From a bacterium (GTDB lineage: Bacteria > Patescibacteriota > Minisyncoccia > Phycocordibacterales > UBA5272): a stretch of DNA of 64,000 bases. The notes under the pieces were generated by a model. The model saw nothing but the letters and a program-made list of their open reading frames with translations, made no database searches and was not told the DNA's origin. Position numbers and translations under genes: made by a program. This document shows, in pieces, positions 5,597 to 56,737 of the stretch (its first letter is position 1; every line of letters starts with the position of its first letter). Location of the stretch: positions 4,652-68,651 of the forward strand of contig JAIXVU010000008.1 of assembly GCA_027482685.1 (NCBI GenBank), given 5' to 3'.

Positions 5597-5680
5597 ATAT
5601 TGGATGGTTATTAGTAATTAGTTATTGGTTATTAGTTTGGTTCATAATGTATTGACTAATTACTAATTACAAATAACTAA

Positions 5681-7635
<1,955 letters not shown>

Positions 7636-11550: not shown

Positions 11551-11637
11551 ACGTACATACTGTTATTAGTAATTAGTAATTTGTTATTAGTTGAATGTAT
11601 ACGCACACACTAATTACTAATTACCAATAACTAATTA

Positions 11638-11856
11638 CTACCCAAGGAGGAAGAACGCTACGAGCGCGAATATAGCCGTTGTTTCTGTCATTGCAACCGC
11701 GATGATCATCTTTGAGAAGATAGATGCCTCAACATCTGGGTTACGTCCGATTGCTTCCATAGTCTTACCTACGAGGTATCCTTGTCCGATTGCTGTTCCT
11801 AGCATTGCTAGAATACACATTCCTTTTGCGATATAAATTGCTGCTTCTGGTGTCAT
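11638..11856 (-). CDS. atpE: Fo ATP synthase c subunit
   Basis: It is a two-TM hairpin with a conserved carboxylate (AMTETTAIFALV); 72 aa. Confidence 0.9.
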   Translation of the reverse strand: MTPEAAIYIAKGMCILAMLGTAIGQGYLVGKTMEAIGRNPDVEASIFSKMIIAVAMTETTAIFALVAFFLLG

Positions 11857-35272: not shown

Positions 35273-35300
35273 TGTGCGCCGGGGTTGGAATTTCACAACC
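35273..35300 (-). repeat. Diverged partial copy of the tRNA-Tyr 3' end (T-arm plus acceptor 3' strand)
   Basis: tgcgccggggttggaatttcacaacc versus the tRNA's tgcgccgggttggatttgaaccaacg. Confidence 0.6.
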
Positions 35301-35407
35301 TTCATTCGCTTCACTCATTACGGTTTAGAAGACCGCTGCGGTTTCTATTCTTCCGCTACGGGAAACTAAACACGTTTCCCGACCCTTTTCCTTATTTAAA
35401 TCCAGCC

Positions 35408-35450
35408 GACAGTAAAAATAAAACAACAATGAAAAGCTTTTCATTGTTGT
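35408..35450. terminator. Long perfect palindrome downstream of tRNA-Tyr
   Basis: AAATAAAACAACAATGAAAAGC/TTTTCATTGTTGTTTTATTT gives a ~20-bp stem with flanking T-run. Confidence 0.6.
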
Positions 35451-35462
35451 TTTATTTCTATG

Positions 35463-35545
35463 TGCGCCGGGTTGGATTTGAACCAACGAAGGCTAAAGCC
35501 ATCTGATTTACAGTCAGACCTCGTTGACCACTTGAGTACCGACGC
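35463..35545 (-). tRNA. tRNA-Tyr (anticodon GTA), type II with long variable arm
   Basis: Acceptor GCGTCGG/CCGGCGC, anticodon loop CTGTAAA, T-arm GTTGG-TTCAAAT-CCAAC. Confidence 0.85.
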
Positions 35546-44990: not shown

Positions 44991-46064
44991 TCAGTGCACT
45001 GTGGCACCTGCAGCCGTCTGAGCGGCTGCGGTCACGACCGGCGCCTGTGGCGCCGGCTCTTCGTCAGCCTCGACCACATCGGCGTTGCCGTTGGCAATCG
45101 ACGCGGCGACTTGGTCGACCTCGTCCTCGTCCCAGAGCGGACGGAGGATGCTGGCGATGATGCTTGCGGCCGGATTCGAGTGCCCGGACTTGAGCAGTTG
45201 GTATGTCGGGATGTAGTTCCCGACCACCAGCCCTTCCGGGGCGCCGAGCGGTGCCACCGTCAGCTTGAGCGCGTGGATCATCGTGGCCCGCTCGCCCTTC
45301 CCTACCGGCACGAAGCAGGTCTGGAAGATGAGAGGCTTGTCACCGACGTTGAAGCCGAACGTGCCGACCTCGTCCTGGTCCATCACTTTCAAGAGTGAGC
45401 TCCCGATCTCGCCTGCAGCGATCTGCTCCCGCAGACCATCCATGGCCTCGCGGATGTTGATCGCTTCGGCGCCACCGGCGACCTCGATTGCACGCAGAAG
45501 TACGTCCATGACGGCCTTCTTCGTGTTTTCGAACTGCTGGTTGACCTCACGGTCACCAGTGCTCGCCCGCTGGAAGTACCGGCGCTTAGCCGGGTCGTCG
45601 TGCGAAGCGATTGATCGCAACTCATCGAAAAAGATGAAGAAGCCGACCGGCACCTTCCCGTTCTCCGAGCCGATCACCTTGGCCGCTTGGCGGTTGCCGC
45701 GCGGATTCGTGATAGTCGTACACTCGAAGAGGACATCTTCGAAGTAGAGATTCTCGACATCGCCGAAGGCGAAGAGAAGAAAATCCTCCGTGGCCTGCAA
45801 CCGGATGGCTGCGTTCTTGAGCGTCTCCTTGACGGGGTCACTCGTGGCAGACGTGCGCTCGACCATAACAGTCAGGTCGGGGTTGTTGCCGGCGGCCGTG
45901 GCCAACTGCGACGCGATGTCACCATGCGTCAGAGCGCTCCTGCCGGTGCGGCCGGTGTGGCCGCGGCGACCGGTGCGGCGAGCACGGCCGTTTGTTTCGT
46001 CGTCGTTGCTGTCGTCACGGAAATTCTGCTTGCCCATGTCGGGACTCCTTATTTGAGAATTCAT
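44991..46064 (-). CDS. Hypothetical protein, GC-rich (~62%) island gene A, basic Arg/Gly-rich N-terminus
   Basis: Strong coding signal; no recognisable domain. Confidence 0.55.
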   Translation of the reverse strand: MNSQIRSPDMGKQNFRDDSNDDETNGRARRTGRRGHTGRTGRSALTHGDIASQLATAAGNNPDLTVMVERTSATSDPVKETLKNAAIRLQATEDFLLFAFGDVENLYFEDVLFECTTITNPRGNRQAAKVIGSENGKVPVGFFIFFDELRSIASHDDPAKRRYFQRASTGDREVNQQFENTKKAVMDVLLRAIEVAGGAEAINIREAMDGLREQIAAGEIGSSLLKVMDQDEVGTFGFNVGDKPLIFQTCFVPVGKGERATMIHALKLTVAPLGAPEGLVVGNYIPTYQLLKSGHSNPAASIIASILRPLWDEDEVDQVAASIANGNADVVEADEEPAPQAPVVTAAAQTAAGATVH

Positions 46065-46150
46065 TACAGGGAACTACGGCGGCTATTCGGTTTTTGCTAC
46101 CCAATCAGGGTGAACGCGATTAGTCGTCGGCGTATTATAGCATAATTAAG

Positions 46151-46209
46151 TACTTTGTCAATATCATCACAGGCACTTAACTTGACAAAAGTACAAAATA
46201 GTGTATACT
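46151..46209. promoter_or_regulatory. Divergent promoter region with palindromic -35 pair
   Basis: GTACTTTGTCAA-N20-TTGACAAAAGTAC; rightward promoter TTGACA-N16-TATACT at 46182-46209. Confidence 0.6.
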
Positions 46210-46307
46210 ATATTCACTGGACTATTGGGGAAGTAAAAACCTTGATAGAGATCCGGTAAGTTCATTGACTTTTCCCGCATTTACTGTAGCGGGTCAGGAG
46301 AAAATTC

Positions 46308-47483
46308 ATGCCGAAGAACAAGGGTGCTGACGGACGCGGTGACAGCAAGAGCATCGCTGAACGCGAAAAGCAGTCGCAGGACGCGAAGCTCCGTCGAAAG
46401 AAAGTCGCCGCTGTCGAAGGCGGTGCGGTCAAGTCGTTCGCCGACCTGACCGCTCTGCCGGTCGAGAAGGTTGTCGTTGCGACGGCGACCATCGACGACA
46501 TGATCAACGGCCGCGTGGCCACTGGCCACGTCATCGGTGTCGGGGAGGGCAACCTCTTCGAGGTCACCCAGAAGGGCCTGACCCTTCGCGCAGCGGAAGA
46601 CCAGGCTCTCACCGGCTACACCACGCGGGGAGAGAACATCTTCCTTCCCTTGTGGTCGCTCACGCTGGACGAGTTCACCTCGCCGCTTCGTAACGGAGCG
46701 AAGAACCAGTTTTTCGCCGACAAGCAGGAAGCGATGTGGAAGCACATCGCTTCGGAGATGACTGACGAGCAGACCCGCGCGCTCAAGAAGCGCTTGGATG
46801 ACGAGAAGGAGTCCGGCAAGTACGTCGGCGAAGATCGCGAAATCTTCGCCCGAGCGAACCGGAACATCAGCGACGCGTTCGAGGCACTCACCCTCGAGAA
46901 CTGCTTCGTGGAGTTCCGGATCGGCAACGATCTCGAGAAGAGCATCGTCGTCGGCGTTAGCGTCAGCAACGGCGCACTCGAGCTTCGCTTCGGCCACGTC
47001 GGTGGCGGGCATGAGCTCGCTGGCAAGGTGATCAAGGGCACCGTCCTCTGGGCTTCCGGCGGGCTGTTGCCCGAGACCTTGAGCGAGGCTCAGCTCAACT
47101 CGGTCTTTGGACCGTCGCTCACCGCCATGCGGTCTGTGCTGCTGAACGGCACCCACCGTGAGGTGGTAATATCCGGGCTCCTGGCTGCCCACCAGCGCCT
47201 CCGCAAGGAAGGGCGGGCAAATCAGAAGGTGGCATCGGTACTCACACTGGTCCCCTCCAAGAAGGTCGAGACTCCGGTCGCTCAGACCGTCGCCCCGACC
47301 CCTGCCCCCAAGCCGGTCGCGCAACCCGCACCGGTGATGACCGGAACGGTCTCTCCCGAACAGGACAACATCACCCAGCTCATCAAGAGCTTGCGTGAAG
47401 CCGGTATGAGCCCGAAGGATATCGGCGAAGCCATTGCGGGCTACAACACCAACAAGGCCAGCTCCGGCAGCAAGTCTGCCTGA
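46308..47483 (+). CDS. Hypothetical protein, GC-rich island gene B (basic N-terminus, Pro-rich linker, small C-terminal domain)
   Basis: Strong coding signal; no recognisable domain. Confidence 0.55.
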   Translation: MPKNKGADGRGDSKSIAEREKQSQDAKLRRKKVAAVEGGAVKSFADLTALPVEKVVVATATIDDMINGRVATGHVIGVGEGNLFEVTQKGLTLRAAEDQALTGYTTRGENIFLPLWSLTLDEFTSPLRNGAKNQFFADKQEAMWKHIASEMTDEQTRALKKRLDDEKESGKYVGEDREIFARANRNISDAFEALTLENCFVEFRIGNDLEKSIVVGVSVSNGALELRFGHVGGGHELAGKVIKGTVLWASGGLLPETLSEAQLNSVFGPSLTAMRSVLLNGTHREVVISGLLAAHQRLRKEGRANQKVASVLTLVPSKKVETPVAQTVAPTPAPKPVAQPAPVMTGTVSPEQDNITQLIKSLREAGMSPKDIGEAIAGYNTNKASSGSKSA

Positions 47484-47520
47484 TCGGCCAAGTGGCTCGT
47501 GCAATGCGAGCCACAAACAC

Positions 47521-47560: not shown

Positions 47561-47638
47561 TTTGTAATGCATTTTCAGTATTCGCAAAAAATACATTTTT
47601 ACGCTATAATCTCTTAACAGTTTTCAAAAAGTAAATAT

Positions 47639-47722
47639 GCCCGGGTGGCGAAATTGGTAGACGCACTTGCCTTAGGAGCAAGCGAGGCAACTCATGAAGG
47701 TTCAAGTCCTTTCCCGGGCACC
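47639..47722 (+). tRNA. tRNA-Leu (anticodon TAG)
   Basis: GCCCGGG acceptor, D-arm GGCGAAATTGGTAGACGC, anticodon loop CTTAGGA, long variable arm, T-arm, CCCGGGC-A; own promoter TTCGCA...TATAAT upstream. Confidence 0.9.
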
Positions 47723-49339
47723 CTTTAGTACATTTTGATTCTCAAGAGAGTCAAAAGGTGGATTAAGTGTTTGTTTATAAGGTTTTTTATCCTTAACATA
47801 AAAGTTCAAGAAGATTTTCCTCATTATATAGTCTAAATCACTCATTTGTGTCATTTTAGGTATGTTTTCTGGGACTTTTTCCATAAGTTTAATAAATTCA
47901 GAATAAGTAATAATTCCATCTTTTTCGTTGTCTAATAACTTTTTAAGTTTAGTTATCTCTTTTTCTTTATCTTTAATACTTGCCTCAATCTTTACAATGT
48001 CATTTCTATAATAATCTTTTATATTATCCGACTCATTTCCTACAAGTAAATCTTTCACTTGTTCAAACCTTTCCTTTAAATAGTTTATTTGTTTTGATAA
48101 CACCAAAATGTTATTTTTCAATATCCCAGAATTTTTTGATAAAACATTTTTCATCTCATTAACAAAATGGTCATAACTCCCTTTACTTGAAAAAGGTTTT
48201 TGTTCTAGATAGTCAGTTGCAAATCCTATTATCTCTTTAGCTCTTATAGATTTATTTCTTTGAGGGCATTCCACTGTATCACATCTGTAATAAAAGTACC
48301 CCTCAGAGCCGTTCTTTAGTTTTTTGCTTGTTATTCCAGGTGTTAACGCTTCATTGCAGTCACCACAAATAATCATTCCAGTCATTAAATTAGCTTTCTT
48401 GTTATCTCCTTTTTTATATCTCTTGGAAAGTTTAATAAATTCTGAATTACCAGTTAGTTTATTTATTCTAAAAAATTCATCAACTGTAATCATAGGAATG
48501 AAGCCTTGTATTTTTATGAGATTAACAACCACACCTTTTCCATACATAAGAATGCCTGTATATACTGGGTCTTTCATTATTGTTAACAACCTTTGTTTGG
48601 TCATTCCATAAACTTTAGGAGATGTTTCTGTATTTGAGTGATAATAGTTATTATCCTTTAAGTAATCACATATTTCATCAAAAGTCTTTCCTTCAAGGCG
48701 AAGCTGAAAAGCGTTTTGCAACAAAACAAAGTTTTCACCATTTGGTATAAGATTACTATTTCTATCTTTGAAATAACCATTCTTTGCTTTGTTTACATAA
48801 GCACCTCTTTCAATACTTTTTTCATTGCCACGCATAACATCATCTGATAATTTATCGGAGTATTCTTTTGAGAGAACAAAAGTAATGCCTAGTAACATTT
48901 TTCCACTCGTATCATTCGTAAATGAAAAACTAGGAAACTTCAAATCTGCTATGATGTGCTTATCAAGCAAATCTATAACCTCTCCCGCCTCTTTCATATT
49001 TCTGGATAACCTATCTGGATGCCAAGCAATTATTCCGTCGTACTTACCACTTTTTAATCCATTTAACATTTCTCTAAAAATGGGTCGTATATCTGGCTCT
49101 TTAGCAGACCTTTTTTCTATAAGAATATCCACCTTCTTTAATTCGTTTCTTTCAGCAAATTCAACACATTTATCAACCTGGTCCTCAATTGAAAAAACTT
49201 GTTTACTTTCTTCATCCGTTGACTTTCTTGCATAGATTACATATTTCAATTTTGCTGTGTCTACATCTCTGCCGTTTATTGGTATTGCTAACCTCAATAA
49301 TTCAGCTAACTCTTCAGGTGTTTTTGGAAAATCTGACAT
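47702..49339 (-). CDS. Large serine recombinase (resolvase catalytic domain, recombinase domain, zinc-ribbon, coiled coil)
   Basis: N-terminal YARKSTDEE...DRLSR; 545 aa; stop codon lies inside the tRNA-Leu T-arm. Confidence 0.85.
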   Translation of the reverse strand: MSDFPKTPEELAELLRLAIPINGRDVDTAKLKYVIYARKSTDEESKQVFSIEDQVDKCVEFAERNELKKVDILIEKRSAKEPDIRPIFREMLNGLKSGKYDGIIAWHPDRLSRNMKEAGEVIDLLDKHIIADLKFPSFSFTNDTSGKMLLGITFVLSKEYSDKLSDDVMRGNEKSIERGAYVNKAKNGYFKDRNSNLIPNGENFVLLQNAFQLRLEGKTFDEICDYLKDNNYYHSNTETSPKVYGMTKQRLLTIMKDPVYTGILMYGKGVVVNLIKIQGFIPMITVDEFFRINKLTGNSEFIKLSKRYKKGDNKKANLMTGMIICGDCNEALTPGITSKKLKNGSEGYFYYRCDTVECPQRNKSIRAKEIIGFATDYLEQKPFSSKGSYDHFVNEMKNVLSKNSGILKNNILVLSKQINYLKERFEQVKDLLVGNESDNIKDYYRNDIVKIEASIKDKEKEITKLKKLLDNEKDGIITYSEFIKLMEKVPENIPKMTQMSDLDYIMRKIFLNFYVKDKKPYKQTLNPPFDSLENQNVLKGARERT

Positions 49340-49446
49340 GCTGTTATATTATCACAATACAAAAGAGAAAAGACGGCTAGAAAATAAAGCTGAAGCACTC
49401 TTGGTTGTTCCAAAATTGACCATTATTAATAAAAAGAGTACTTTGT

Positions 49447-49911
49447 TTAGCGTTTTACACTACCCCATTTATCAAGCATATCTAGCGCTTTCTTTTTTTG
49501 TTCTTTAATTTTTAATATGTTTGCCTCAGAATCATAGTATAAATTACTTGAATCTTGTGGCATTACTCTTGGTTTTCCATATAGACGGTCAAAGAAAATT
49601 TGAATAGCCTTTATGTCACCATTTCTTGCTTTGTTTATAAGTTGAATAAGTATAATTTGTTCAATATCTATATCTTCCAAAGTAAATTTATCTTTATGTG
49701 TTTCGTTATATTGATTTACATAATTTATAGCAATTCTTTCCATTGCCAAATCTATGAGAGTGCTATAATTTCTCACCCCTTTTTGTCTTCCATTCGGGTT
49801 GCCTGACTGACCCTTTTGGAAAGGTTTCAAGTTACTTTTACTTTTAGGATTACTTCCCCGCAAAGTACCGTCTTTTGATATTGTTTCACTATTTCTTTCA
49901 CTGCTTTGCAT
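49447..49911 (-). CDS. Phage-associated DUF5681-like protein
   Basis: GNPNGRQKG motif near the N-terminus. Confidence 0.45.
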   Translation of the reverse strand: MQSSERNSETISKDGTLRGSNPKSKSNLKPFQKGQSGNPNGRQKGVRNYSTLIDLAMERIAINYVNQYNETHKDKFTLEDIDIEQIILIQLINKARNGDIKAIQIFFDRLYGKPRVMPQDSSNLYYDSEANILKIKEQKKKALDMLDKWGSVKR

Positions 49912-49996
49912 ATGTATATCATAATAAAAAATAACAAAATAATACAGAGAAAGTGTATATGTTTATTCTTTGAGCAAATTCATTAGTACCCGTAAA

Positions 49997-50758
49997 TTAC
50001 TCTGGCATAGTTTCTTCTGTGAGAATCACAGGGGGTTGAGCGCTCTGTACAATTTCTACCAACTTTGCTTTTTTCTTTAGCTCGGTCTTTGCTTTTGGCT
50101 TAGAAACATCTAAGGTTGTAGTAATTATTTGGTAAACAGATTCTAAAATATCTTCACTAGAAAAGTTTACCCCTGTCTTACTTTTTAGGTTTTTCTTTAG
50201 AAGCTTAATAACCGACTCATCAAATAAGTATTTTGATAATGAAACTGGCGACAAACTGTCAACTTTTTTCCAATAAATATCAAGTAAATTCTTTGAAATA
50301 GCTTTTTTAGTAATAAGTTCAAACAAAGTAAAACAGTCTTTGTAATCTTTTTCATTGAGTAAATCTAAATCAAAAACAAGTTTTGTGTAGACTGGCTTTG
50401 CAAACATAACCTTATAGAGCTGAAACTGTTTACCATTTAAGAGTAGTATCCAGTCTATACCCTCACTAGCTGAGTAACCCAAACTTTGCCTTAGGTGATT
50501 TTCATTTAGTTTTATACCTAGCGACTTAACTTCTACAACCATCCTCTTTTTCTTACCTGTTTGAATAACATAATCAGCATAACCACCACTTATTTCATAC
50601 TCAGTTTTAATCTCTTCATTTTGAGAGTATCCGAGTACGTTTCTTAAAAAATCATTTATAAGTAATCTAGTGCCAGACTCGTTTAATTTTGGGTTATTTT
50701 TATATGCCAAAACTAAATCTTTCTTATAATCCTTAATAGCATCTTTATGGTTTTTCAT
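49997..50758 (-). CDS. PD-(D/E)XK nuclease-fold protein (HsdR-N/Mrr-like core)
   Basis: GYADYVIQ...VVEVK reads as a D...E-x-K motif. Confidence 0.5.
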   Translation of the reverse strand: MKNHKDAIKDYKKDLVLAYKNNPKLNESGTRLLINDFLRNVLGYSQNEEIKTEYEISGGYADYVIQTGKKKRMVVEVKSLGIKLNENHLRQSLGYSASEGIDWILLLNGKQFQLYKVMFAKPVYTKLVFDLDLLNEKDYKDCFTLFELITKKAISKNLLDIYWKKVDSLSPVSLSKYLFDESVIKLLKKNLKSKTGVNFSSEDILESVYQIITTTLDVSKPKAKTELKKKAKLVEIVQSAQPPVILTEETMPE

Positions 50759-50765
50759 AAGACTG

Positions 50766-51212
50766 TTAGCGAGTTTTATCTTTTAGTTCATCTAATAATT
50801 TTTTCAACTTGTAAGGATTAGCAACGTTCCTTAACACCACTTCTTGCCCCCCAGTTCCAGCAGTATCAATAGAAATAATCCCCGATTTGGTAAAGACTCT
50901 TTGTAGGAATGGTTCAGAAACATACGTATCAGTTATCTTGTTGTAGTCAATACTCACCAAACTTGTTGACAACCATCCTCGGTGGATTAAAACTCTTTTA
51001 TTAGTAAAAGCATAGACATTTGCTCGTTTAACGTAAAATAAGAAGTAGAATAAAACAAAAAGAGGAGCCCCTATTGTGAAAAATGGTAAAGATATAACTA
51101 ACCAAATAATCATATAAAAAATTCTATATTTATCACCGACTGAAAACTCTTCTTTAACTTCTTCACTGTTACCTAAAACTTTCTTCCAAATATCTTGATT
51201 TACTGTATTCAT
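50766..51212 (-). CDS. Membrane-anchored bacterial PH-domain protein (bPH_2/DUF304)
   Basis: TM hairpin followed by a YdbS/YdbT-like PH domain. Confidence 0.55.
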   Translation of the reverse strand: MNTVNQDIWKKVLGNSEEVKEEFSVGDKYRIFYMIIWLVISLPFFTIGAPLFVLFYFLFYVKRANVYAFTNKRVLIHRGWLSTSLVSIDYNKITDTYVSEPFLQRVFTKSGIISIDTAGTGGQEVVLRNVANPYKLKKLLDELKDKTR

Positions 51213-51284
51213 ATTATTAAGTTGTTAAAATTAATTTTTAAGAGCTATATAAAAAACAAAATAGGCACCCCATATAGCGGAGTG

Positions 51285-51405
51285 CCCAAAAACCAATAGA
51301 TTAACTACTGATTATGTTCTCCGCATAGGATGCCTATGCTGTACACAATCAGTAGTTAACCCTTGTGGGTTTTTGATTTATTTCTTATTGGTTTTTGGGC
51401 AGTTT
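51285..51405. repeat. Long imperfect palindrome inside the integrative element
   Basis: GCCCAAAAACCAATAGATTAACTACTGATT...AATCAGTAGTTAAC...TATTGGTTTTTGGGC. Confidence 0.6.
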
Positions 51406-51759
51406 AATTATATCACATAGAGGAAAACACCTTATTACTACTATATAATAAGTTCAATAACTCCTTTGTATATACAAAACTATCTCTTTTCTATTCCAAG
51501 AGTTACAACTCTCCCATCCCCACTTGTTACTTGCTGTGGCAAAGTACCTGTACTTACTGGAGTTTTTGGAAGATGTTGAACTACATCTGTTAAGTTGTCT
51601 TTTCTCATATACTAAAAGTATACCATGCTTAATAAGTAATAATTAGAGTGTCTTTGGCATACTCTTTAGACAGAAACTCTTTCATAGACTTATTCCAAAT
51701 CTTTACTACTTCAAGGTTATTTATTAGTATTTCAAAAAGTTCAAGTGTGGTATGATACT

Positions 51760-51815
51760 CTGCACAGAATAATAAATACCCATACTGTAATCAGTATGGG
51801 TATTTATTATTCTGT
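51760..51815. repeat. Perfect 24-bp-arm palindrome
   Basis: CACAGAATAATAAATACCCATACTG-TAATC-AGTATGGGTATTTATTATTCTGTG. Confidence 0.8.
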
Positions 51816-51822
51816 GAGCATT

Positions 51823-51911
51823 TGAAGCATGTGACCTGCGTCACATGCGGAAGGACTTGAATAGAGGTCGCGAAACTTTATCGACGAGCTTGCGAGGAGA
51901 AGTTTTGTGAC
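51823..51911 (+). repeat. tRNA-associated structured module copy 1 ending in the tRNA-Leu 3'-end duplicate
   Basis: Hairpin GCATGTGAC-CTGC-GTCACATGC, core GGTCGCGAAAC...GTTTTGTGACC, then caagtcctttcccgggcac. Confidence 0.7.
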
Positions 51912-52003
51912 CAAGTCCTTTCCCGGGCACATAAATACAAAAGACAGACTTTCAAGGTCTGTCTTTTGTATTGACTGTGTTTCTATAGAAGCAAACAAAC
52001 TTG

Positions 52004-52082
52004 CTTTGTTTGCGGAAGGACTTGAATACGAGGTCACGAAACCACTTCGAGCAGAGCGAGGTAGTTTTGTGACCAAGTCCTT
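52004..52082 (+). repeat. tRNA-associated structured module copy 2 (degraded 3' end)
   Basis: GCGGAAGGACTTGAATACGAGGTCACGAAAC...GTTTTGTGACCAAGTCCTT. Confidence 0.65.
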
Positions 52083-52104
52083 ATGATTAAGGTATAATAT
52101 AAAT

Positions 52105-52476
52105 ATGAATAGATTTGAACAAACATCACCCACAATACAACAAGCCGAAAGTCCTTTTAAAAATACATTTGAGAATTCTGAGTTCAAAATAAAACTAGAT
52201 AAAGCTGTAAGTGATTTTTCAAAATCACACATTAATCTCTCCGATACAAATAATGCCAAATGGCAGTGTTTGGAAGTATCTTGGGAGTTCATTAAATTTT
52301 TAAATGATACTGAGGTAATTACACCTGAAATGATTGAGCAAGGTGTGGTTGGAGTTTCTCATGCTAATATCAAAGGAACACCTCACACAGTAGCAAAAGT
52401 CGGGGATAAATTAATTGATTGGACTTATAGACAATTTGAACCCGAAAGCCCATTTCCATATATTCATACCCTTTAA
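52105..52476 (+). CDS. Hypothetical protein
   Basis: 123-aa ORF; host-like composition; no domain. Confidence 0.4.
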   Translation: MNRFEQTSPTIQQAESPFKNTFENSEFKIKLDKAVSDFSKSHINLSDTNNAKWQCLEVSWEFIKFLNDTEVITPEMIEQGVVGVSHANIKGTPHTVAKVGDKLIDWTYRQFEPESPFPYIHTL

Positions 52477-52533
52477 TTTATTTTATAAATCTTTGTAATT
52501 GCTGTATAGAAGATTTGATATCATTACTATATA

Positions 52534-53262
52534 ATGAAAATTCAGAAAGACACAATATTGGGGCACGCTATGATTATCCCTATTATATTCGAGGATAACA
52601 ATATATTAGTTATCGATAAACCCTCAGGTCTTGTTGTGCATCCGTTTGATTTTTCTGATGAGTCAACACTTATTGATTTTTTACGTATTCATATACCAGA
52701 ATCTTTTTCTATAAATAACACTATAACGCTTCAAGATGGCCGTGAGATAGCCCTTGGTGGTATCGTACATAAACTCGACCGTGATACCTCTGGTGTGATG
52801 GTGGTTGCGAAAAACCAGCAATCATTTGATGCGCTTCAAAAGCAGTTCCAGAGAAAAGACGGAGCACAGCCTGTTACAAAAGTATACGTTGCAGTAGTCG
52901 AGAGAATTATTAAAGAAGACTCTTTTACAATTGATGCACCACTGGGGAGAGAAAAGAAAGGCTACAAGCAAGTGGTCAATCCTAGCAACCCTCGTGGAGA
53001 ACTGCGCGATGCTGTAACTAAAGTTAAGGTGATACAAAGAAATGCGGAAACAACGCTCGTAGAGCTACACCCCGTCACTGGTAGGACACATCAGTTACGT
53101 GCACACATGTCATCAATCGGACATGCTATTGTTGGTGACATCGCATATGGTAGCACCTTCCCTGCTACACGAATCATGCTACACGCACAATCACTATCGT
53201 TTATGGTTGATGGGAAGGAATATATTTTTGAGGCAAAGGTGCCGGACGGGTTTACTGTCTAA
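52534..53262 (+). CDS. RluA-family pseudouridine synthase
   Basis: HKLDRDTSGVMVVAKN carries the catalytic Asp. Confidence 0.8.
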   Translation: MKIQKDTILGHAMIIPIIFEDNNILVIDKPSGLVVHPFDFSDESTLIDFLRIHIPESFSINNTITLQDGREIALGGIVHKLDRDTSGVMVVAKNQQSFDALQKQFQRKDGAQPVTKVYVAVVERIIKEDSFTIDAPLGREKKGYKQVVNPSNPRGELRDAVTKVKVIQRNAETTLVELHPVTGRTHQLRAHMSSIGHAIVGDIAYGSTFPATRIMLHAQSLSFMVDGKEYIFEAKVPDGFTV

Positions 53263-53280
53263 AAATATTTCTACAAGAAG

Positions 53281-53877
53281 TTATCGTAATAGATACGCAA
53301 CGAGAAGCGTTGATACAATATCTCCTGCGAAGAGATACGGCGCTATCTGTCTAAATGGCACTTTACCAAACGCGAGACCAACGAGCAAGATATCATTAGG
53401 GGCTGGGAAGAACGCACTATAACAAAAGATGAATATATGTAACATCCAGTCAGGCAGTATCTTTATTGCTCTTGCTGTAAAGTCTGTTACTTTTTTCCAA
53501 TGCCTATCTATAATATATGTACTTCTACTTATGACATAATAGAAAATAAAATCACTCAGACATACACCAAGGCCACCTGTGATACCAAGTAGAAGCGGAT
53601 TAGCCCCACCTTTTGCAAGGGCTCCGATTGTGACGTAAAAGGTCGTACTGGTAATGGATGAAAATCCGCAAATAGCCGAGACAATAAACGCAACTAAGTA
53701 TGAATTTTGTATGCCAATCTTCTGCACTAGCGAATCAGGAGAAACGAAATGAAAGAATATTCCCCATCCGATAGTAATGAGTACTATAAGTATGATAGGT
53801 CCATAAAACTTAAGCCAAGAGATAGTAATTTCTCTTTGCATACTAGTTGTAATATTTAGCAAGAAGAACCCTTGCAC
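53281..53877 (-). CDS. DedA/SNARE-associated (VTT domain) membrane protein; alternative start at 53841
   Basis: Multi-TM with a DedA-like G-rich motif. Confidence 0.55.
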   Translation of the reverse strand: MQGFFLLNITTSMQREITISWLKFYGPIILIVLITIGWGIFFHFVSPDSLVQKIGIQNSYLVAFIVSAICGFSSITSTTFYVTIGALAKGGANPLLLGITGGLGVCLSDFIFYYVISRSTYIIDRHWKKVTDFTARAIKILPDWMLHIFIFCYSAFFPAPNDILLVGLAFGKVPFRQIAPYLFAGDIVSTLLVAYLLR

Positions 53878-53916
53878 ACATGAGACTTATCAAGACTACA
53901 CCATAGGTTGTAGTCA

Positions 53917-54540
53917 TTACCGTATTTCAATTAACACTTCGTTACGAGTCATCCATGGTGGAGTCCATGGTGCGTTATACCCCGCATATGATGGCTTCCC
54001 AATGATCTCTATTGTATCTTTAGATAATAGATCAAGTAATTTCTTTTCCATCGTCTCTATACGAGTATCAGTTCTGTATCCAGAAAATCTAATTACAGCA
54101 ACTTGTTTGGCTGGAACTTCGACAATCTTAACCCTTTCATCAGTTGGTGTAGGAAGAGTATCTGGTGTATATGACTTTGGCATCCCAAAAGATATTGTCC
54201 TTGTTTCTTTTTCGTTACCTACGACAACAGGTGCAGTCATTGCAATTTTCTCTGATCCTCCTTCTTGCATAACTACAGGAGATGTCATTGCAATATTTTG
54301 CTTTTTTGTATTTGCTCCGAATATATAGCTAGCGACGATGGTGAAGCCTTTGTTCATCGACTCACTATATGATCCAGTCACTGTGGTTTGAGCCACAATG
54401 TGTGATGGATAACTTCGTATCTCGTATTCTTTTTCATTTTTCACAACTGAATATTCCGCCTGCTCAACACGTGAAGCAAAGTAACTGTATATAGACCAAA
54501 TAACAAGCACAAGGACGATAACAAACAAAGTTATTATCAT
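53917..54540 (-). CDS. SOUL/HBP heme-binding family protein with N-terminal TM
   Basis: YEIRSYP...TSPV pattern. Confidence 0.55.
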   Translation of the reverse strand: MIITLFVIVLVLVIWSIYSYFASRVEQAEYSVVKNEKEYEIRSYPSHIVAQTTVTGSYSESMNKGFTIVASYIFGANTKKQNIAMTSPVVMQEGGSEKIAMTAPVVVGNEKETRTISFGMPKSYTPDTLPTPTDERVKIVEVPAKQVAVIRFSGYRTDTRIETMEKKLLDLLSKDTIEIIGKPSYAGYNAPWTPPWMTRNEVLIEIR

Positions 54541-54611
54541 ACTAATCAGTATAGCAGTTATGTTCTAAAAGAAGGCATAAAAGATGTACCTTAGGATTTA
54601 GCTATAATTTG

Positions 54612-54805
54612 ATAGTGCCCAGGGCGGGACTCGGCTACAAGTTTTCTTTCGCCGACGCCCAAGAAACTCGCAGCCCGCCCCTCGTGGTTTCGCTTGCTAG
54701 CGAAACATCACTGCGGCCCTTCAAGCCTCAACGCACACCAAGCAGTTGGTGTGCTCCCTGGGCACTATGTAAAAAATACGTACATATGTGTACGTATTTT
54801 TTACA
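54612..54805 (-). repeat. tRNA-Leu(TAA)-associated structured module
   Basis: A 22-nt duplicate of the tRNA 3' end lies at 54612-54633; hairpin GCACACCAA-GCAG-TTGGTGTGC; a 29-bp perfect palindrome (54755-54816) runs into the tRNA acceptor 3' strand. Confidence 0.7.
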
Positions 54806-54808
54806 TAG

Positions 54809-54890
54809 TGCCCAGGGCGGGACTCGAACCCGCACGCACAATGTGCTGAGGATTTTAAGTCCTCTATGTCTACCATTCCATCACCCGGGC
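54809..54890 (-). tRNA. tRNA-Leu (anticodon TAA)
   Basis: GCCCGGG acceptor, anticodon loop CTTAAAA, long variable arm, T-arm GCGGG-TTCGAGT-CCCGC. Confidence 0.85.
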
Positions 54891-54945
54891 AAATCTAGAG
54901 TGCTTGACTATTCTAACAAATTTTCTGAAACAAAGGAATCGATAA

Positions 54946-55548
54946 TTACTTTACAACCTTTAATGTGAATAATCCAATAGTTGATACAAATATCGCACCG
55001 AGTGTGTCCATCAGCATATCCTTTTGTGCATCCCATATATCCCCTTGAGATCCGAGGAATGCGATACCAGCCTCACCCCCTGCCTTAACCGCGTACTGCC
55101 ATTCAATAAGTTCATAGACCATAGCAAGAGTGCCAATGAAGCATACAGAGAGAAAGAATGCCCAGAACTTCGTAGCTACTTTCTTATATTTCAAAACATA
55201 CTCCATGAGTCCATATGCAAAGAAGCCTGTCGTGAAGTGCCCAACCCTATCGAACATATTTCTCTCAAACCCGAAAAAATTATTAAACCAGTCAAACGGC
55301 ACACGCTCAAATGTATAGTGTCCGCCTATTGTATGAAGAAACGGCAAAATGAACATAAAGAAATATGCGAGATTAGAAAATCTAATACCACGAATATAGA
55401 GAACAACGAGGAATAGGACAATCGCTACAATCGGAAGATTTTCTGCATACCACACATCACGTGAATACGGGTTGATACCAAGTGCGATGAATTCAACAAC
55501 ATAAATACTTAGTAATAAATGTGGAAAATACTTTTGTATGAAGGTCAT
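54946..55548 (-). CDS. Multi-pass membrane protein (DUF2238/YjdF-like)
   Basis: Six TM segments; weak family resemblance. Confidence 0.4.
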   Translation of the reverse strand: MTFIQKYFPHLLLSIYVVEFIALGINPYSRDVWYAENLPIVAIVLFLVVLYIRGIRFSNLAYFFMFILPFLHTIGGHYTFERVPFDWFNNFFGFERNMFDRVGHFTTGFFAYGLMEYVLKYKKVATKFWAFFLSVCFIGTLAMVYELIEWQYAVKAGGEAGIAFLGSQGDIWDAQKDMLMDTLGAIFVSTIGLFTLKVVK

Positions 55549-55721
55549 ATTAAAAGTATAGCAAGAGGATAGAGAGTACTATATAGATACTGTGGTCACG
55601 AGTTACTAACTGCACTAATCGCACCGCGTGTGAGTTGCTCGTAAGTACTCGCAGCCCCGCATCGCACGTTTTAGAAAAGTAAGAAATTCAAACTTTTCTA
55701 AAACATTGCTGCGGCTGGCAC

Positions 55722-55800
55722 AACAGTGCAAAAGCAAAGAAGTTTGCTTTCTAGAACAAAAGCACTTGGCCTACCAAGCGCTTTGTTCTACTGTTGTGCC
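55722..55800. repeat. Nested three-way-junction structure
   Basis: The outer 11-bp stem GGCACAACAGT/ACTGTTGTGCC encloses AAAGCAAA-GAAGT-TTTGCTTT and AGAACAAAAGCACTTGG-CCTA-CCAAGCGCTTTGTTCT. Confidence 0.6.
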
Positions 55801-55898
55801 CCCAGTAGGGAGTTCGGTCACAAAACTACCTCGCGTTGCTCGAAGTAGTTTCGCGACCCCTATTCGATCCCTTACGCAAATGAAGCAGTTCATTTGCT
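55795..55898 (-). repeat. tRNA-Lys-associated structured module copy 3 ending in the tRNA-Lys 3'-end duplicate
   Basis: Reading the minus strand: hairpin GCAAATGAA-CTGC-TTCATTTGC, core GGTCGCGAAACTACTTCGAGCAACGCGAGGTAGTTTTGTGACC, then ccctactgggggcac. Confidence 0.7.
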
Positions 55899-55956
55899 CT
55901 GTTGTCGCTGATAATAAAAACACTTCCCATGATTACAAGGTAAGTGTTTTTATTAT

Positions 55957-56031
55957 GGTGCCCCCAGTAGGGATCGAACCTACGACCTGCGGATTAAGAG
56001 TCCGATGCTCTACCAGCTGAGCTATAGGGGC
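55957..56031 (-). tRNA. tRNA-Lys (anticodon CTT), CCA encoded
   Basis: GCCCCTA acceptor, anticodon loop CTCTTAA, T-arm GTAGG-TTCGATC-CCTAC, ending ACCA. Confidence 0.85.
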
Positions 56032-56134
56032 ATTTATGTGAGACATACTATACCATGCAATGGTAAATTATTCTAGAGTCTCCTGAGAAAATATGTTAGA
56101 ATGAAAAAACTTTTTGAAATGTGATTTCAAGAAA

Positions 56135-56154
56135 GAATGATGCAGTGGCGAAAA
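56135..56154 (+). repeat. 20-nt direct duplicate of the tRNA-Cys 5' end plus upstream 6 nt
   Basis: aagaatgatgcagtggcgaa recurs at 56251-56270. Confidence 0.7.
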
Positions 56155-56256
56155 GGTCCATGAGCGCAGCGAAATGTATGAAATAGCTCTGCGGTTAAAC
56201 CGTAGCGTTAGGATGCAGAAGTAAGAAATAGTTGTTAGAATATTTGAATAAAGAAT

Positions 56257-56330
56257 GATGCAGTGGCGAAGAGGCCTAACGCTGCGGTTTGCAAAACCGC
56301 CATTCGCGGGTTCGACTCCCGCCTGCATCT
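56257..56330 (+). tRNA. tRNA-Cys (anticodon GCA)
   Basis: GATGCAG acceptor, anticodon loop TTGCAAA, T-arm GCGGG-TTCGACT-CCCGC, discriminator U. Confidence 0.85.
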
Positions 56331-56332
56331 CA

Positions 56333-56514
56333 AAAAATAGCGAAGCGTTTTTTAAGGCGCAGGAAGACAGCACCTGCGTGCTGTCTGTCGAGAGTCGAAG
56401 CGCGGAGCTATATTTTTCTACCAAGAAAAATAGCGAGCGGCGGTCGGTGAGAAACTTCTGCGACGGCAAAAGTTTACTTGTCGAAGAATCTCCCGCCTGC
56501 ATCTCTAACAAATA
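56333..56514 (+). repeat. tRNA-Cys-associated structured module ending in a 25-nt near-identical copy of the tRNA 3' end plus trailer
   Basis: Hairpin AGACAGCAC-CTGC-GTGCTGTCT; ctcccgcctgcatctc(a/t)aa(a/c)aaatag repeated at 56317-56341 and 56490-56514. Confidence 0.65.
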
Positions 56515-56737
56515 GAATCAAAAATGAATACAGAAGAGGCGCCTTCGGCGCCTTATTTGTATTCTATCTAACATAATTTTAATAACACAACTAATTTGCA
56601 AATATGTCTATGGTATGAGAGGATAAGGTCGGAAATATCTTTTTGCTCTTTTACAAAAAAAGCAAGCAATTCAACTCATCTCTATTGAAAGGGTAATCAT
56701 GCGTATCACAAAAGCGTAAGGTTGTGTCATCGCTCTT

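What the first reader, a model, noticed from the sequence alone, without database searches (positions are those of the whole stretch)
51823..55898. Conserved-structure module recurs downstream of different tRNA genes, each ending in a copy of that tRNA's 3' end
Four loci share one architecture in the same order relative to the tRNA. The loci are Leu-TAG at 51823-51911, Leu-TAA at 54612-54805, Lys at 55795-55898 and Cys at 56333-56514. A degraded fifth sits at Tyr, 35273-35450. Each reads: tRNA, then a long palindrome, then a 9-bp hairpin closed by a CTGC/GCAG tetraloop, then a core of nested stems, then a 16-26-nt direct copy of the 3' end of the adjacent tRNA. The hairpin stems differ completely in sequence but keep the same form: GCATGTGAC, GCACACCAA, GCAAATGAA and AGACAGCAC. 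The core long-range stem GGTCGCGAAAC/GTTTTGTGACC carries a G to A change that converts a G-U wobble to A-U. In each copy the 5' flank of the core is complementary to the T-arm of its own tRNA: GGAAGGACTTGAA for Leu, GTAAGGGATCGAA for Lys. A structure conserved without sequence conservation, tailored to different tRNAs, is the signature of a functional RNA or of recombination-site families of related integrative elements. I cannot name a known element with this layout.
Basis: seen in the sequence. Interest (0 to 1): 0.8.

Follow-up and report, generated by a model that had tools for sequence, protein, structure and literature searches.

The report
Structured cassettes behind tRNA genes
Every tRNA gene in this window is followed by a small gene-less cassette: a terminator, a hairpin, a conserved folded core flanked by an inverted and a direct copy of that tRNA's last ~20 bases; about a hundred such cassettes follow tRNA and tmRNA genes in related candidate-phyla (Paceibacteria-type) genomes and match nothing in Rfam or the searchable literature.

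Summary
All five tRNA genes in the window carry the module, and there are six copies because Leu-TAG has two in tandem. The only four perfect 9-bp CTGC hairpins in 64 kb lie in these modules. The Leu-TAG module is 4.1 kb from its tRNA because an unrelated large-serine-recombinase island sits between them.

In about 50 loci the core starts 43-104 nt after a tRNA of almost any identity. Two copies follow tmRNA genes.

The hairpin covaries at 8 of 9 pairs. The core's closing helix GGUCG/UGACC keeps a G.U wobble, which points to a single-stranded sense-strand form. Rfam, IMG/VR and the paper searches returned nothing.

Modules come and go at orthologous tRNAs and form tandem arrays. They are at least as conserved (74-87%) as coding DNA (65-78%).

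My best reading (0.4) is a tiny gene-less insertion cassette family targeting the T-loop-to-3'-end segment of tDNAs, with hairpins that act in single-stranded form. The main rival (0.33) is a tRNA-linked structured RNA. The function is not shown.

The parts
47703..47721 (+). Live tRNA-Leu(TAG) positions 56-73 (T-A segment), the sequence repeated at 51912-51930
47724..51765 (-). NOT part of the module: interposed low-GC island. It carries a large serine recombinase 47702-49339, DUF5681, an HSDR_N_2/PD-(D/E)XK protein and a bPH_2 protein. Its conserved right end is 51734-51765 and ends in GCAC.
51766..51813 (+). Leu-TAG_a: terminator-like palindrome P (25-nt perfect arms)
51827..51848 (+). Leu-TAG_a: hairpin h, GCATGTGAC-CTGC-GTCACATGC
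51849..51861 (+). Leu-TAG_a: T' (reverse complement of T loop + T-stem 3' strand), followed by bulge TAGA
51866..51912 (+). Leu-TAG_a: type-1 core hairpin GGTCGCGAAAC...GTTTTGTGACC
51912..51930 (+). Leu-TAG_a: 19-nt direct copy of tRNA-Leu(TAG) positions 56-73
51931..51975 (+). Leu-TAG_b: second palindrome P
51991..52013 (+). Leu-TAG_b: hairpin h (9 bp, loop CTTGC)
52014..52074 (+). Leu-TAG_b: T' (52014-52026), bulge, and type-1 core with the G-to-A change (52032-52074)
52074..52083 (+). Leu-TAG_b: decayed partial copy CAAGTCCTTA. The acceptor part is lost, and the region now overlaps a promoter-like site for the 123-aa ORF.
54756..54817 (-). Leu-TAA: 62-nt perfect palindrome made of the tRNA's acceptor 3' strand, the terminator, and its complement A'
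54733..54754 (-). Leu-TAA: hairpin h, GCACACCAA-CTGC-TTGGTGTGC
54633..54732 (-). Leu-TAA: T'-like segment (54720-54732) and two-hairpin core (54633-54719). The last hairpin GGCTGCGAG../..CTTGTAGCC is homologous to the type-1 core.
54613..54633 (-). Leu-TAA: 21-nt direct copy of the tRNA 3' end (live copy 54806-54826)
55912..55955 (-). Lys: terminator-like palindrome P
55876..55897 (-). Lys: hairpin h, GCAAATGAA-CTGC-TTCATTTGC
55816..55875 (-). Lys: T' (55863-55875), bulge TAGG, and type-1 core (55816-55858)
55796..55816 (-). Lys: copy of tRNA-Lys positions 56-73 with a 2-nt insertion (CGA[AC]TCCCTACTGGGGGCAC). The live copy is 55958-55976.
56332..56364 (+). Cys: short A-run/T-run palindrome and A'-like segment
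56365..56386 (+). Cys: hairpin h, AGACAGCAC-CTGC-GTGCTGTCT
56387..56489 (+). Cys: T' (56387-56399) and two-hairpin core. Orthologues are in L003 and L117.
56490..56505 (+). Cys: 16-nt direct copy of the tRNA-Cys 3' end (live copy 56316-56331)
35414..35459 (-). Tyr: terminator-like palindrome P
35293..35406 (-). Tyr: T'-like segment (35395-35406) and three-hairpin core closed by GGGTCG../..GGTTGTGA. There is no hairpin h. The orthologue is in L100.
35274..35292 (-). Tyr: copy of the tRNA-Tyr 3' end with a 1-nt insertion (live copy 35462-35478)

Best explanation
The modules are a family of tiny (about 110-190 nt), gene-less insertion cassettes that occupy the 3' flank of tRNA and tmRNA genes.

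One unit reads: tDNA positions 56-73 (T-A), a terminator P (often extended by A', the complement of the acceptor 3' strand), hairpin h, T' (the complement of the T loop plus T-stem 3' strand), the bulge AATA(C)GG, and a core hairpin. A unit therefore sits between two direct copies of the tDNA's last ~18-21 nt. That is the geometry of a regenerated target plus displaced fragment that marks genomic islands in tDNAs.

Shown:
- the architecture;
- its spread to about 25 tRNA identities and to tmRNA;
- the copy starting at C56;
- tandem arrays;
- gain, loss and type turnover at orthologous tDNAs;
- within-genome homogenisation of the core;
- the hairpins being constrained on the sense strand only.

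Inferred:
- The unit is gained and lost by recombination through the T-A repeat. This could be a trans-acting recombinase working on a folded single strand, in which T'/T and A'/A rebuild a duplex copy of the target. That is the logic of integron attC sites and the CTX phage attP. It could equally be homologous recombination after DNA uptake, using the conserved tDNA as an anchor.
- P serves to terminate the tRNA transcript in front of the cassette.
- h and the core are the cis-acting structures that are recognised.

No enzyme was identified and no movement was observed.
For: 1. Direct repeat of the tDNA 3' end. 53 of 135 tRNAs in the fetched loci have a <=3-mismatch copy of their last 16 nt within 400 nt downstream, against 2 of 127 upstream. 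The copy starts at C56 and ends at N73. PMC4383910 states that islands in tRNA/tmRNA genes are marked by a regenerated target and a displaced fragment.
2. Both tRNA and tmRNA genes are targets.
3. Presence, absence and type turnover at orthologous Lys/Cys/Leu-TAA tDNAs in ten genomes.
4. A filled/empty relation at tRNA-Leu(TAG). The window has units a+b. In L117 unit b follows the tRNA directly. L038 and L031 have unit a.
5. Tandem arrays in which the distal copy is usually the more decayed: window a/b, L031, L003, L119.
6. Each T-A copy, live or displaced, is followed by a terminator-like palindrome of the genome's ordinary style. The cassette thus lies behind a terminator and has no evident promoter.
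7. The same core type sits at different tDNAs. The Leu-TAA-type core is 87% identical to one at tRNA-Asp in L012. Near-identical core apices sit at three or four tDNAs within one genome. Chimeric modules exist in L003, L058 and L103.
8. No gene is consistently linked to the modules.
9. The window encodes DprA, which fits DNA uptake.
10. The contig of the same strain breaks inside cores, so they behave as dispersed repeats.
Against: - No recombinase was found. The only one nearby, the LSR, is excluded. 30 window ORFs show no tyrosine recombinase or HUH enzyme.
- No empty site at strain level and no free form was seen. The only other contig is identical.
- A mobile cassette would need a matched T'/A'/T-A set for every tDNA. 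How that arises is unexplained.
- Conserved G.U wobbles (93/100 and 76/100 copies), the invariant loop and the invariant bulge are what a functional RNA would show.
- Orthologous copies are as conserved as, or more conserved than, coding DNA. For a selfish element that requires repeated horizontal replacement.
- The short-P variants lack a convincing terminator, so read-through transcription is possible.
- None were found in IMG/VR.
Confidence: 0.4

Rival explanations
1. A host structured RNA, one per tRNA or tmRNA. It would be transcribed on the tRNA strand, by read-through or from a promoter embedded in P.

It folds as a tRNA-shaped three-way junction:
- an acceptor-like stem A'/A;
- hairpin h in place of the D and anticodon arms;
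- a T-like stem T'/T with the conserved core inserted in place of the T loop.

The constant parts (h loop CUGC, bulge AAUA(C)GG, helix GGUCG/UGACC with its G.U) would bind a protein. The tRNA-specific parts would either mimic the cognate tRNA's acceptor/T minihelix, for example as a processing or insulator signal for RNase P/Z, or pair with the tRNA's 3' third.
For: - Sense-strand constraint. G.U versus A.C counts are 203:9 in the core and 16:6 in h.
- The sense covariance-model hits score about 100 bits against about 25 bits for antisense.
- h covaries at 8 of 9 pairs with 97.5% pairing.
- The closing helix keeps G.U at pair 5 in 27 of 32 copies that were not selected by the search pattern, while distal pairs covary.
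- Unpaired motifs are conserved.
- Module identity between genomes is 74-87%, against 65-78% for coding DNA.
- Predicted folds are cloverleaf-like with 10-14-bp acceptor-like stems.
- T' stays complementary to the live tRNA where the right-hand copy has diverged, in about 14 cases.
- Short-P variants lack a real terminator.
Against: - Most copies lie behind a strong terminator of the genome's normal type.
- The promoter scan is at background: 14 sites found against 14.3 expected.
- The acceptor part of the copy often decays while A' persists, so the tRNA-like fold is not maintained (L001, L077, L083, L097).
- T'/T mismatches are not compensated.
- Modules are absent from some orthologous tRNAs, so they are not essential.
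- Several different core types occupy the same tRNA in different genomes.
- There are no expression data.
- No reason is known why each tRNA would need its own RNA in this lineage only.
Confidence: 0.33
2. The modules are the att-site ends, or non-autonomous derivatives, of the large-serine-recombinase islands that target tRNA genes in these genomes.
For: - An LSR gene (Resolvase + Recombinase + Zn_ribbon_recom) lies between tRNA-Leu(TAG) and module a in the window, and likewise in L122.
- Its ORF runs antisense through the tRNA's last 20 nt.
- The family is widespread in CPR and always abuts a tRNA.
Against: - The island's right end is conserved between the window and L122 and stops before P. 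It shares only GCAC/GGCAC with the tRNA end.
- Islands in L001-L003 have no Leu-type module at their far end.
- The sampled LSRs sit only at Leu and Ala tRNAs, whereas modules sit at about 25 tRNA identities, usually with no LSR in the 8-kb locus.
Confidence: 0.04
3. The modules are independently decayed remnants (scars) of ordinary kilobase-sized integrative elements, with no function or identity of their own.
For: - The direct repeat of the tDNA 3' end is the classical scar.
- Real islands with cargo do sit at these tDNAs: the LSR island in the window, an R-M pair in L121, and a methyltransferase in L012.
Against: - About 100 copies share the same ordered architecture and a near-invariant core across tRNA types and genomes.
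- h keeps its structure through compensatory changes.
- Independent decay cannot converge on this layout.
Confidence: 0.03
4. Some other DNA-level host function of the arrangement direct copy, inverted copy, direct copy. Examples are a decoy attachment site that diverts integrating islands away from the tRNA, or a hairpin/cruciform that protects the tDNA's 3' end.
For: - These tDNAs are heavily targeted by islands.
- Each displaced copy followed by a terminator reproduces the tRNA-end context that the LSR islands use.
- A' and T' are kept complementary to the live tDNA.
Against: - In the window and in L122 the LSR island went into the live tRNA end, not the decoy.
- The idea does not explain the conserved core and the h loop.
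- It is purely inferential.
Confidence: 0.1

Closest known systems
Genomic islands / integrative elements in tRNA and tmRNA genes (as catalogued by Islander, PMC4383910) and their integrase-less derivatives (CIMEs; from my own knowledge)
   Same: - They sit at the 3' side of tDNAs, tmRNA included.
- They are bounded by the intact gene and a displaced direct copy of its 3' end.
- The repeat runs from the T loop to the end of the gene.
- They form tandem arrays.
- Their presence varies among relatives.
   Different: - The modules are 110-190 nt with no gene at all, against kilobases for islands.
- They carry an inverted copy of the target (T', A').
- They have two conserved hairpins with sense-strand wobble pairs.
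- They occupy a large share of the sampled tDNAs: all 5 in the window, and 53 of 135 in loci that were themselves chosen for carrying a module.
- No integrase was found.
Integron attC sites and the folded attP(+) of CTX phage (from my own knowledge)
   Same: - Structure is conserved while sequence varies.
- Imperfect inverted repeats fold one strand into a duplex copy of the recombination site.
- Bulged bases lie on one arm.
- There is a variable terminal hairpin.
- Some cassettes carry no gene.
   Different: - There are no RYYYAAC/GTTRRRY core sites.
- No IntI or attI platform is present.
- Each copy sits at a different tDNA rather than in one array.
- The stem sequence equals the neighbouring tDNA.
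Bacterial MITEs / REPIN-type repeats (Correia, REP/BIME; from my own knowledge)
   Same: - They are short, gene-less, hairpin-forming intergenic repeats.
- They lie next to terminators.
- They are present in many copies and are homogenised within a genome.
   Different: - The module's 'terminal inverted repeat' differs at every locus and equals the flanking tDNA.
- The direct repeat is 16-21 nt rather than 2-10.
- The target is strict (tDNA 3' end).
- There is no associated transposase or RAYT.
tRNA-like RNA domains (tmRNA tRNA-like domain, YrlA, viral TLS, mascRNA; from my own knowledge)
   Same: - An acceptor-like stem is coaxial with a T-like stem.
- The sequence ends at the discriminator position.
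- The predicted fold is a three-way junction.
   Different: - The T loop is replaced by a long helix and core.
- There is no D/T-loop elbow.
- The acceptor part is often decayed.
- One version exists per tRNA, encoded right behind it.

Membership tests
Any Rfam 15 family | Covariance-model score at or above the family's gathering threshold | tested here: not met
   In the whole window only the five tRNAs pass. A permissive E-value scan of 51700-56700 gives only tRNAs and generic miRNA-like hairpin noise on the palindromes.
Genomic island in a tDNA (Islander definition) | Intact tRNA/tmRNA gene plus a displaced fragment of its 3' end as a direct repeat bounding the insert | tested here: met
   definition from PMC4383910
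Genomic island in a tDNA (Islander definition) | Integrase gene inside the bounded segment | tested here: not met
   The 110-190-nt units contain no ORF. No recombinase family recurs in the 8-kb loci.
Large-serine-recombinase att site | The module lies at the junction created by the LSR and is present wherever the LSR island is | tested here: not met
   The island ends before P and shares a 4-6-bp core. L001-L003 islands lack the module.
Integron cassette / attC | Inverse core RYYYAAC and core GTTRRRY at the ends of the folded site | tested here: not met
   A direct reading of the 45-sequence alignment shows arm ends of ..TCGAA / CGA.., with no such consensus.
Integron cassette / attC | Array next to an intI gene and attI | tested here: not met
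   Copies are dispersed, one tDNA each. No tyrosine recombinase was seen among 30 scanned window ORFs, but the rest of the genome was not scanned.
MITE | Constant terminal inverted repeats and a short target-site duplication | tested here: not met
   The inverted arms (A'/T' versus T-A) change with the tRNA, and the direct repeat is 16-21 nt.
IS200/IS605-derived PATE | Subterminal hairpins recognised by a Y1 transposase, insertion 3' of a short target that pairs with an internal guide | tested here: inconclusive
   Hairpins and a segment (T') that pairs with the sequence 3' of the core hairpin are present. No Y1 transposase was found in the window or the loci. The two hairpins are unlike each other.
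Ordinary intrinsic terminator / tRNA trailer | Nothing conserved beyond a stem-loop and a T run after the gene | tested here: not met
   P alone fits the genome's terminator style. However h, T', the core and the copy follow it, and they are conserved across tRNAs and genomes.
tRNA-like domain (tmRNA TLD type) | T loop and acceptor stem able to form the tRNA elbow, with a maintained acceptor helix | tested here: not met
   The T loop is replaced by T'/T pairing plus the core. The acceptor copy has decayed in many modules that keep A'. Rfam tRNA/tmRNA models do not hit the modules.
CRISPR or TIGR-type guide array | Tandem short-period repeat-spacer units next to effector genes | tested here: not met
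   There are single units or arrays of 2-3 units with a period of about 165 nt, and no linked protein family.
Transcribed ncRNA gene | Own promoter and terminator, and a detectable transcript | not testable with these tools
   The promoter-like scan is at background. No expression data are available.

The most novel reading that the evidence does not exclude
The modules are the visible part of a single-strand, structure-guided system dedicated to tDNAs. There are two forms this could take.
(a) An integron-like cassette platform. The T loop of every tRNA/tmRNA gene plays the role of attI. The folded T'-core-T hairpin plays the role of attC. A still unidentified structure-specific recombinase does the exchange.
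(b) A set of tRNA-specific scaffold-plus-guide RNAs. The constant core and hairpin bind one protein. The flanking antisense (T', A') and sense (T-A) segments address both strands of the cognate tDNA, or the tRNA's 3' third.
Either form would be a new class of tRNA-directed machinery in candidate-phyla bacteria.
Probability: 0.25. Interest if true: 0.92.

Novelty: new variant of a known kind. Interest (0 to 1): 0.8.

Why it matters
Paceibacteria-type CPR bacteria have genomes of about 1 Mb, which I state from general knowledge. Yet 53 of the 135 tRNA genes sampled here are followed by a copy of their own 3' end, and about 100 modules were recovered in roughly 0.8 Mb of fetched loci.

If the modules are mobile, they are the smallest tDNA-integrating elements described. 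Their targeting logic rebuilds the target as a folded duplex, which would be of interest for understanding, and perhaps engineering, site-specific insertion at tRNA genes. They would also explain assembly breaks and rearrangements between tRNA loci in these genomes.

If they are RNAs, they are a large unannotated family of tRNA-cognate RNAs in a lineage with very reduced RNA-processing machinery.

Either way there are practical consequences:
- A covariance model now exists (R1) to annotate them.
- They mislead island finders that use 'tDNA plus displaced fragment' as a signature.
- They mark a lineage-specific feature that can be tested directly with existing groundwater metatranscriptomes.

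Tried and rejected
1. LSR as the module's integrase. Rejected on junction mapping and on islands that lack modules.
2. 'Cargo' between the tRNA and the module (LSR island, the R-M pair in L121, a methyltransferase in L012, a 160-aa ORF in L073) as evidence for autonomous versions. Rejected, because these are independent islands whose own right ends mimic the tRNA end.
3. Rfam at gathering and at permissive thresholds. Nothing found.
4. IMG/VR scan for the core. 0 hits.
5. Five literature searches ran. The other four found no description. The nearest papers are on group I introns in Patescibacteria tRNAs (PMC13011429) and Islander (PMC4383910).
6. A promoter inside P (TTGTAA-16-TATTAT at Lys). 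It is not consistent across loci, and the scan is at background.
7. A kink-turn in the core apex. The sequence does not fit the bulge-GA-AG rule when written out. Only a tandem G.A-like motif with one G-C to A-U covariation remains.
8. A linked protein found by clustering ORFs of 72 CPR loci. Only syntenic housekeeping genes recur.
9. Strain-level polymorphism through exact-protein look-up. The only other contig is 100% identical and breaks inside cores.
10. A test of whether T' tracks the right-hand copy or the live tRNA. My first two scripts had register errors. The usable result is qualitative: about 14 cases favour the live tRNA. A gap-tolerant count shows T' 92%, T copy 95% and acceptor copy 83% identity.
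11. Group I/II intron, retron, DGR, box C/D or H/ACA guide, and T-box. Each was considered from memory and dropped, because a defining part (catalytic domains, an RT gene, guide pockets, a specifier or antiterminator) is absent from 110-190 nt.

Full report
**What is in the window**

ARAGORN and Rfam agree on five tRNA genes: Tyr 35462-35545(-), Leu-TAG 47638-47723(+), Leu-TAA 54808-54890(-), Lys 55956-56031(-) and Cys 56257-56331(+). I read the sequence and mapped the parts. Each tRNA is followed on its own strand by the same ordered set:
- a terminator-like palindrome, P;
- in four of the five loci, a perfect 9-bp hairpin with loop CTGC, h;
- a segment that is the reverse complement of the tRNA's T loop and T-stem 3' strand, T';
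- a folded core;
- a direct copy of tRNA positions 56-73, T-A.

The four CTGC hairpins are the only perfect hairpins of that kind in 64 kb. About 0.0015 are expected from 381 loop sites. The quoted core occurs three times, against none in 100 shuffles.

Two additions are needed. There is a sixth copy, Leu-TAG_b at 51931-52083, with loop CTTGC. The cores also fall into types:
- Leu-TAG a/b and Lys share one hairpin, GGTCRCGAAAC..GTTTTGTGACC.
- Leu-TAA and Cys share a two-hairpin core whose last hairpin, GGCTGCGAG../..CTTGTAGCC, is a covarying homologue of that hairpin.
- Tyr has three hairpins inside the same closing helix.

**The Leu-TAG locus and the serine recombinase**

The Leu-TAG module is 4.1 kb from its tRNA. 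The interval 47724-51765 has GC 0.30-0.33, against about 0.40 elsewhere. It encodes a 545-aa large serine recombinase (Resolvase + Recombinase + Zn_ribbon_recom), a DUF5681 protein, an HSDR_N_2/PD-(D/E)XK protein and a bPH_2 protein.

Homologues of the recombinase are common in Parcubacteria/Paceibacterota. In every context I fetched they abut a tRNA gene: Leu-TAG, Leu-GAG or Ala.

BLAST shows that island homology ends at 51765. From 51762 onward the sequence is homologous to the stretch 'tRNA end + palindrome + hairpin + core' found elsewhere.

In L122 the same layout recurs. The island's right end there, AAAAAGTTCAAGTGCTGTATGATAGCGGGCAC, matches window 51734-51765 and is followed by a palindrome and a module. 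Islands in L001-L003 have no Leu-type module at their far end.

The island is therefore a separate insertion between the tRNA end and the module. It shares only GCAC/GGCAC with the tRNA. It is not the module's recombinase.

**The family outside the window**

A scan of one genome per species for GGTCRCGAAAC-N15-35-GTTTYGTGAC stopped at its cap with 118 stretches. Most come from Paceibacterota, Nomurabacteria, Parcubacteria or 'Saccharibacteria'-labelled MAGs, often several per genome. The hits in GC-rich non-CPR genomes lack the module context.

In about 50 loci the core starts 43-104 nt downstream of a same-strand tRNA, most often 92-104 nt. The tRNAs are Val, Arg (four anticodons), Glu, Met, Ile, Pro, Asp, Ser, Leu (four), Lys, Tyr, Trp, Thr, Gln and Cys. 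Two further copies follow tmRNA genes.

Of 135 tRNAs in these loci, 53 have a copy of their last 16 nt (three or fewer mismatches) within 400 nt downstream, against 2 of 127 upstream. 27 of the 53 lie beside other core types.

A covariance model built from 45 copies finds about 100 full-length sense-strand matches in the CPR loci and none of full length in the non-CPR loci. In the window it finds only the known copies.

Rfam at permissive thresholds, IMG/VR and four paper searches returned nothing that describes the module.

**Structure**

In the 45-sequence alignment, hairpin h has double compensatory changes at 8 of its 9 pairs, and 97.5% of its cells are paired. For the structure as a whole, none of 500 shuffles reaches the observed measures, and sliding the 3' partners drops pairing to about 40%.

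The T'/T pairs also 'covary', but trivially, because both arms copy the tRNA.

The invariance of the core in that set is forced by the search pattern. In 32 model-detected copies that do not match the pattern:
- the first five pairs of the closing helix stay G-C, G-C, U-A, C-G, G.U (27 of 32);
- the next wobble alternates with A-U or G-C;
- the distal pairs covary.

Across 100 copies, G.U outnumbers A.C by 203:9 in the core and by 16:6 in h. Antisense model hits score about 25 bits, against about 100 for sense. The hairpins are therefore constrained on the tRNA-sense strand as a single strand. These data cannot say whether that strand is RNA or DNA.

**Evolutionary behaviour**

The relatives fetched are only 65-78% identical to the window in coding DNA. 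Module-only alignments reach 74-87%.

Modules are present, absent or of a different type at the orthologous Lys/Cys/Leu-TAA tDNAs of ten genomes.

At tRNA-Leu(TAG) the window has units a and b. L117 has b directly behind the tRNA. L038 and L031 have a.

In most arrays the distal copy is the more decayed.

Core apices are nearly identical at three or four different tDNAs within a genome but differ between genomes. The Leu-TAA-type core is 87% identical to one at tRNA-Asp in another genome. Chimeric modules exist in L003, L058 and L103.

Where the right-hand copy has diverged, often by a 1-3-nt insertion after CGA, T' still matches the live tRNA, and the change is not compensated. A gap-tolerant count gives 92% for T', 95% for the T part of the copy and 83% for its acceptor part.

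A' is usually contiguous with P. It pairs with the live tRNA's acceptor strand even when the right-hand acceptor copy is gone.

P has the style of this genome's ordinary bidirectional terminators. The short-P variants (A run, about 10 nt, T run, then A') are not convincing terminators.

No protein family recurs next to the modules. 30 window ORFs include DprA but no tyrosine recombinase or HUH enzyme.

**Interpretation**

These features are the signature of insertion at a tDNA (PMC4383910):
- an intact tDNA plus a displaced 3' fragment that starts in the T loop;
- tmRNA as a target as well;
- tandem arrays;
- turnover between genomes;
- a terminator in front of each unit;
- no linked gene.

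The conserved hairpins show these are not random scars but a defined element. I therefore favour, at 0.4, a family of gene-less cassettes gained and lost through the T-A repeat. Their T'/T and A'/A arms rebuild the target as a folded duplex, as attC sites and the CTX attP do. Uptake and homologous recombination anchored on the conserved tDNA is an alternative route.

Against this reading:
- no enzyme, free form or strain-level polymorphism was found;
- the matching of every cassette to its tDNA is unexplained;
- the wobble conservation and the high inter-genome identity are what a functional RNA would show.

The RNA reading, a tRNA-shaped partner RNA with a constant protein-binding scaffold, gets 0.33. 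It is weakened by several points:
- the terminator in front of most copies;
- the lack of a promoter;
- the decay of the acceptor copy;
- the uncompensated T'/T changes;
- the dispensability of the module at orthologous tRNAs.

The remaining readings together get about 0.17: LSR att sites, plain scars, and a decoy or protective DNA structure.

**Verdict**

This is a real, widespread and apparently undescribed tDNA-linked structured element. Its mechanism is unresolved. Expression data and population-level junction data would settle the question.

Noticed in passing
window 47702-49339 (-), with tRNA-Leu(TAG) 47638-47723; L001-L003, L122, L124: The large serine recombinase ORF runs antisense through the last ~20 nt of the tRNA. 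Its stop codon TGA is the complement of T55-C56-A57 of a TTCAAGT T loop. The same overlap is kept in homologues at Leu-TAG and Leu-GAG tRNAs that are only 50-70% identical. The island's right end (51734-51765) mimics the tRNA's T loop-to-3' end.
   Followed up: partly
L126-L129 (homologue P0043): A related serine recombinase overlaps almost a whole tRNA-Ala(TGC). In L127 two recombinase genes sit between two inverted tRNA-Ala copies (5431-5506 + and 11609-11683 -).
   Followed up: no
window 45001-47500: GC content jumps to 0.55-0.63 in a genome of about 0.40. Two ORFs there (44991-46064 -, 357 aa; 46308-47483 +, 391 aa) have no Pfam match. The segment lies immediately upstream of tRNA-Leu(TAG).
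   Followed up: no
window 56115-56250: An extra ~130 nt lies between tRNA-Lys and tRNA-Cys and is absent from L003. It is a partial duplicate of the tRNA-Cys 5' region, including 6 nt upstream (AAGAATGATGCAGTGGCGAA occurs twice). It has a shortened anticodon-arm-like hairpin and ends in GGATGCAG. This looks like a 5'-side pseudo-tRNA or a displaced 5' fragment.
   Followed up: no
window 55560-55795 (-), between the Lys module and the DUF2238 gene: A further structured non-coding stretch has a long-range stem GGCACAACAGT/ACTGTTGTGCC and a hairpin TTTTAGAAAAG../..CTTTTCTAAAA. It is 78% identical to L002 658-823 and partly to L093. It has no Rfam match. It could be a leader of the DUF2238 gene or another decayed module.
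   Followed up: partly
L057 6128-6686; L118 5689-6220: tmRNA genes are followed by the same module, with T' and the copy matching the tmRNA's T arm and acceptor end. Several other modules follow tRNA-like 3' ends that ARAGORN and Rfam do not call (L005, L014, L016, L040). These may be intron-containing tRNAs of the kind described in PMC13011429.
   Followed up: partly
L121 (tRNA-Ser 6846-6935 -), L012 (tRNA-Asp 1585-1659 -), L073 (tRNA-Tyr 5617-5701 -): Small islands lie between the tRNA and a module whose copy is still a perfect match. They are a restriction enzyme plus cytosine methyltransferase pair (2.1 kb), a methyltransferase, and a 160-aa P-loop protein flanked by ~70-nt direct repeats. 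None carries an integrase.
   Followed up: partly
L130 (Logan SRR16126875 contig, = window 51885-55891): An independent assembly of the same strain is 100% identical and ends inside type-1 cores at both ends. The modules therefore act as assembly-breaking repeats.
   Followed up: yes
T' of modules at tRNAs with T loop TTCGAGT (L036, L038, L042, L048, L058, L062, L068, L081): T' reads GACGAGAA instead of the exact complement GACTCGAA. Opposite CGAG this gives a C-G / G.A / A.G / G-C arrangement (tandem G.A). The exact complement also exists at the same loop type (L002, L071, L091, L094).
   Followed up: no
L003 13150-13473 (-) and 14023-14350 (+): Two inverted copies of a Lys-type module flank the Lys-Cys-Leu(TAA) tRNA cluster. 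Their palindromes have the loop flipped (GCAAAAC versus GTTTTGC). Gene order around the cluster is inverted relative to the window, which suggests that modules mediate rearrangements.
   Followed up: no
window 52069-52104: The decayed end of module Leu-TAG_b supplies a promoter-like site (GTGACC-18-TATAAT). It ends 6 nt before the ATG of the 123-aa ORF at 52105.
   Followed up: no
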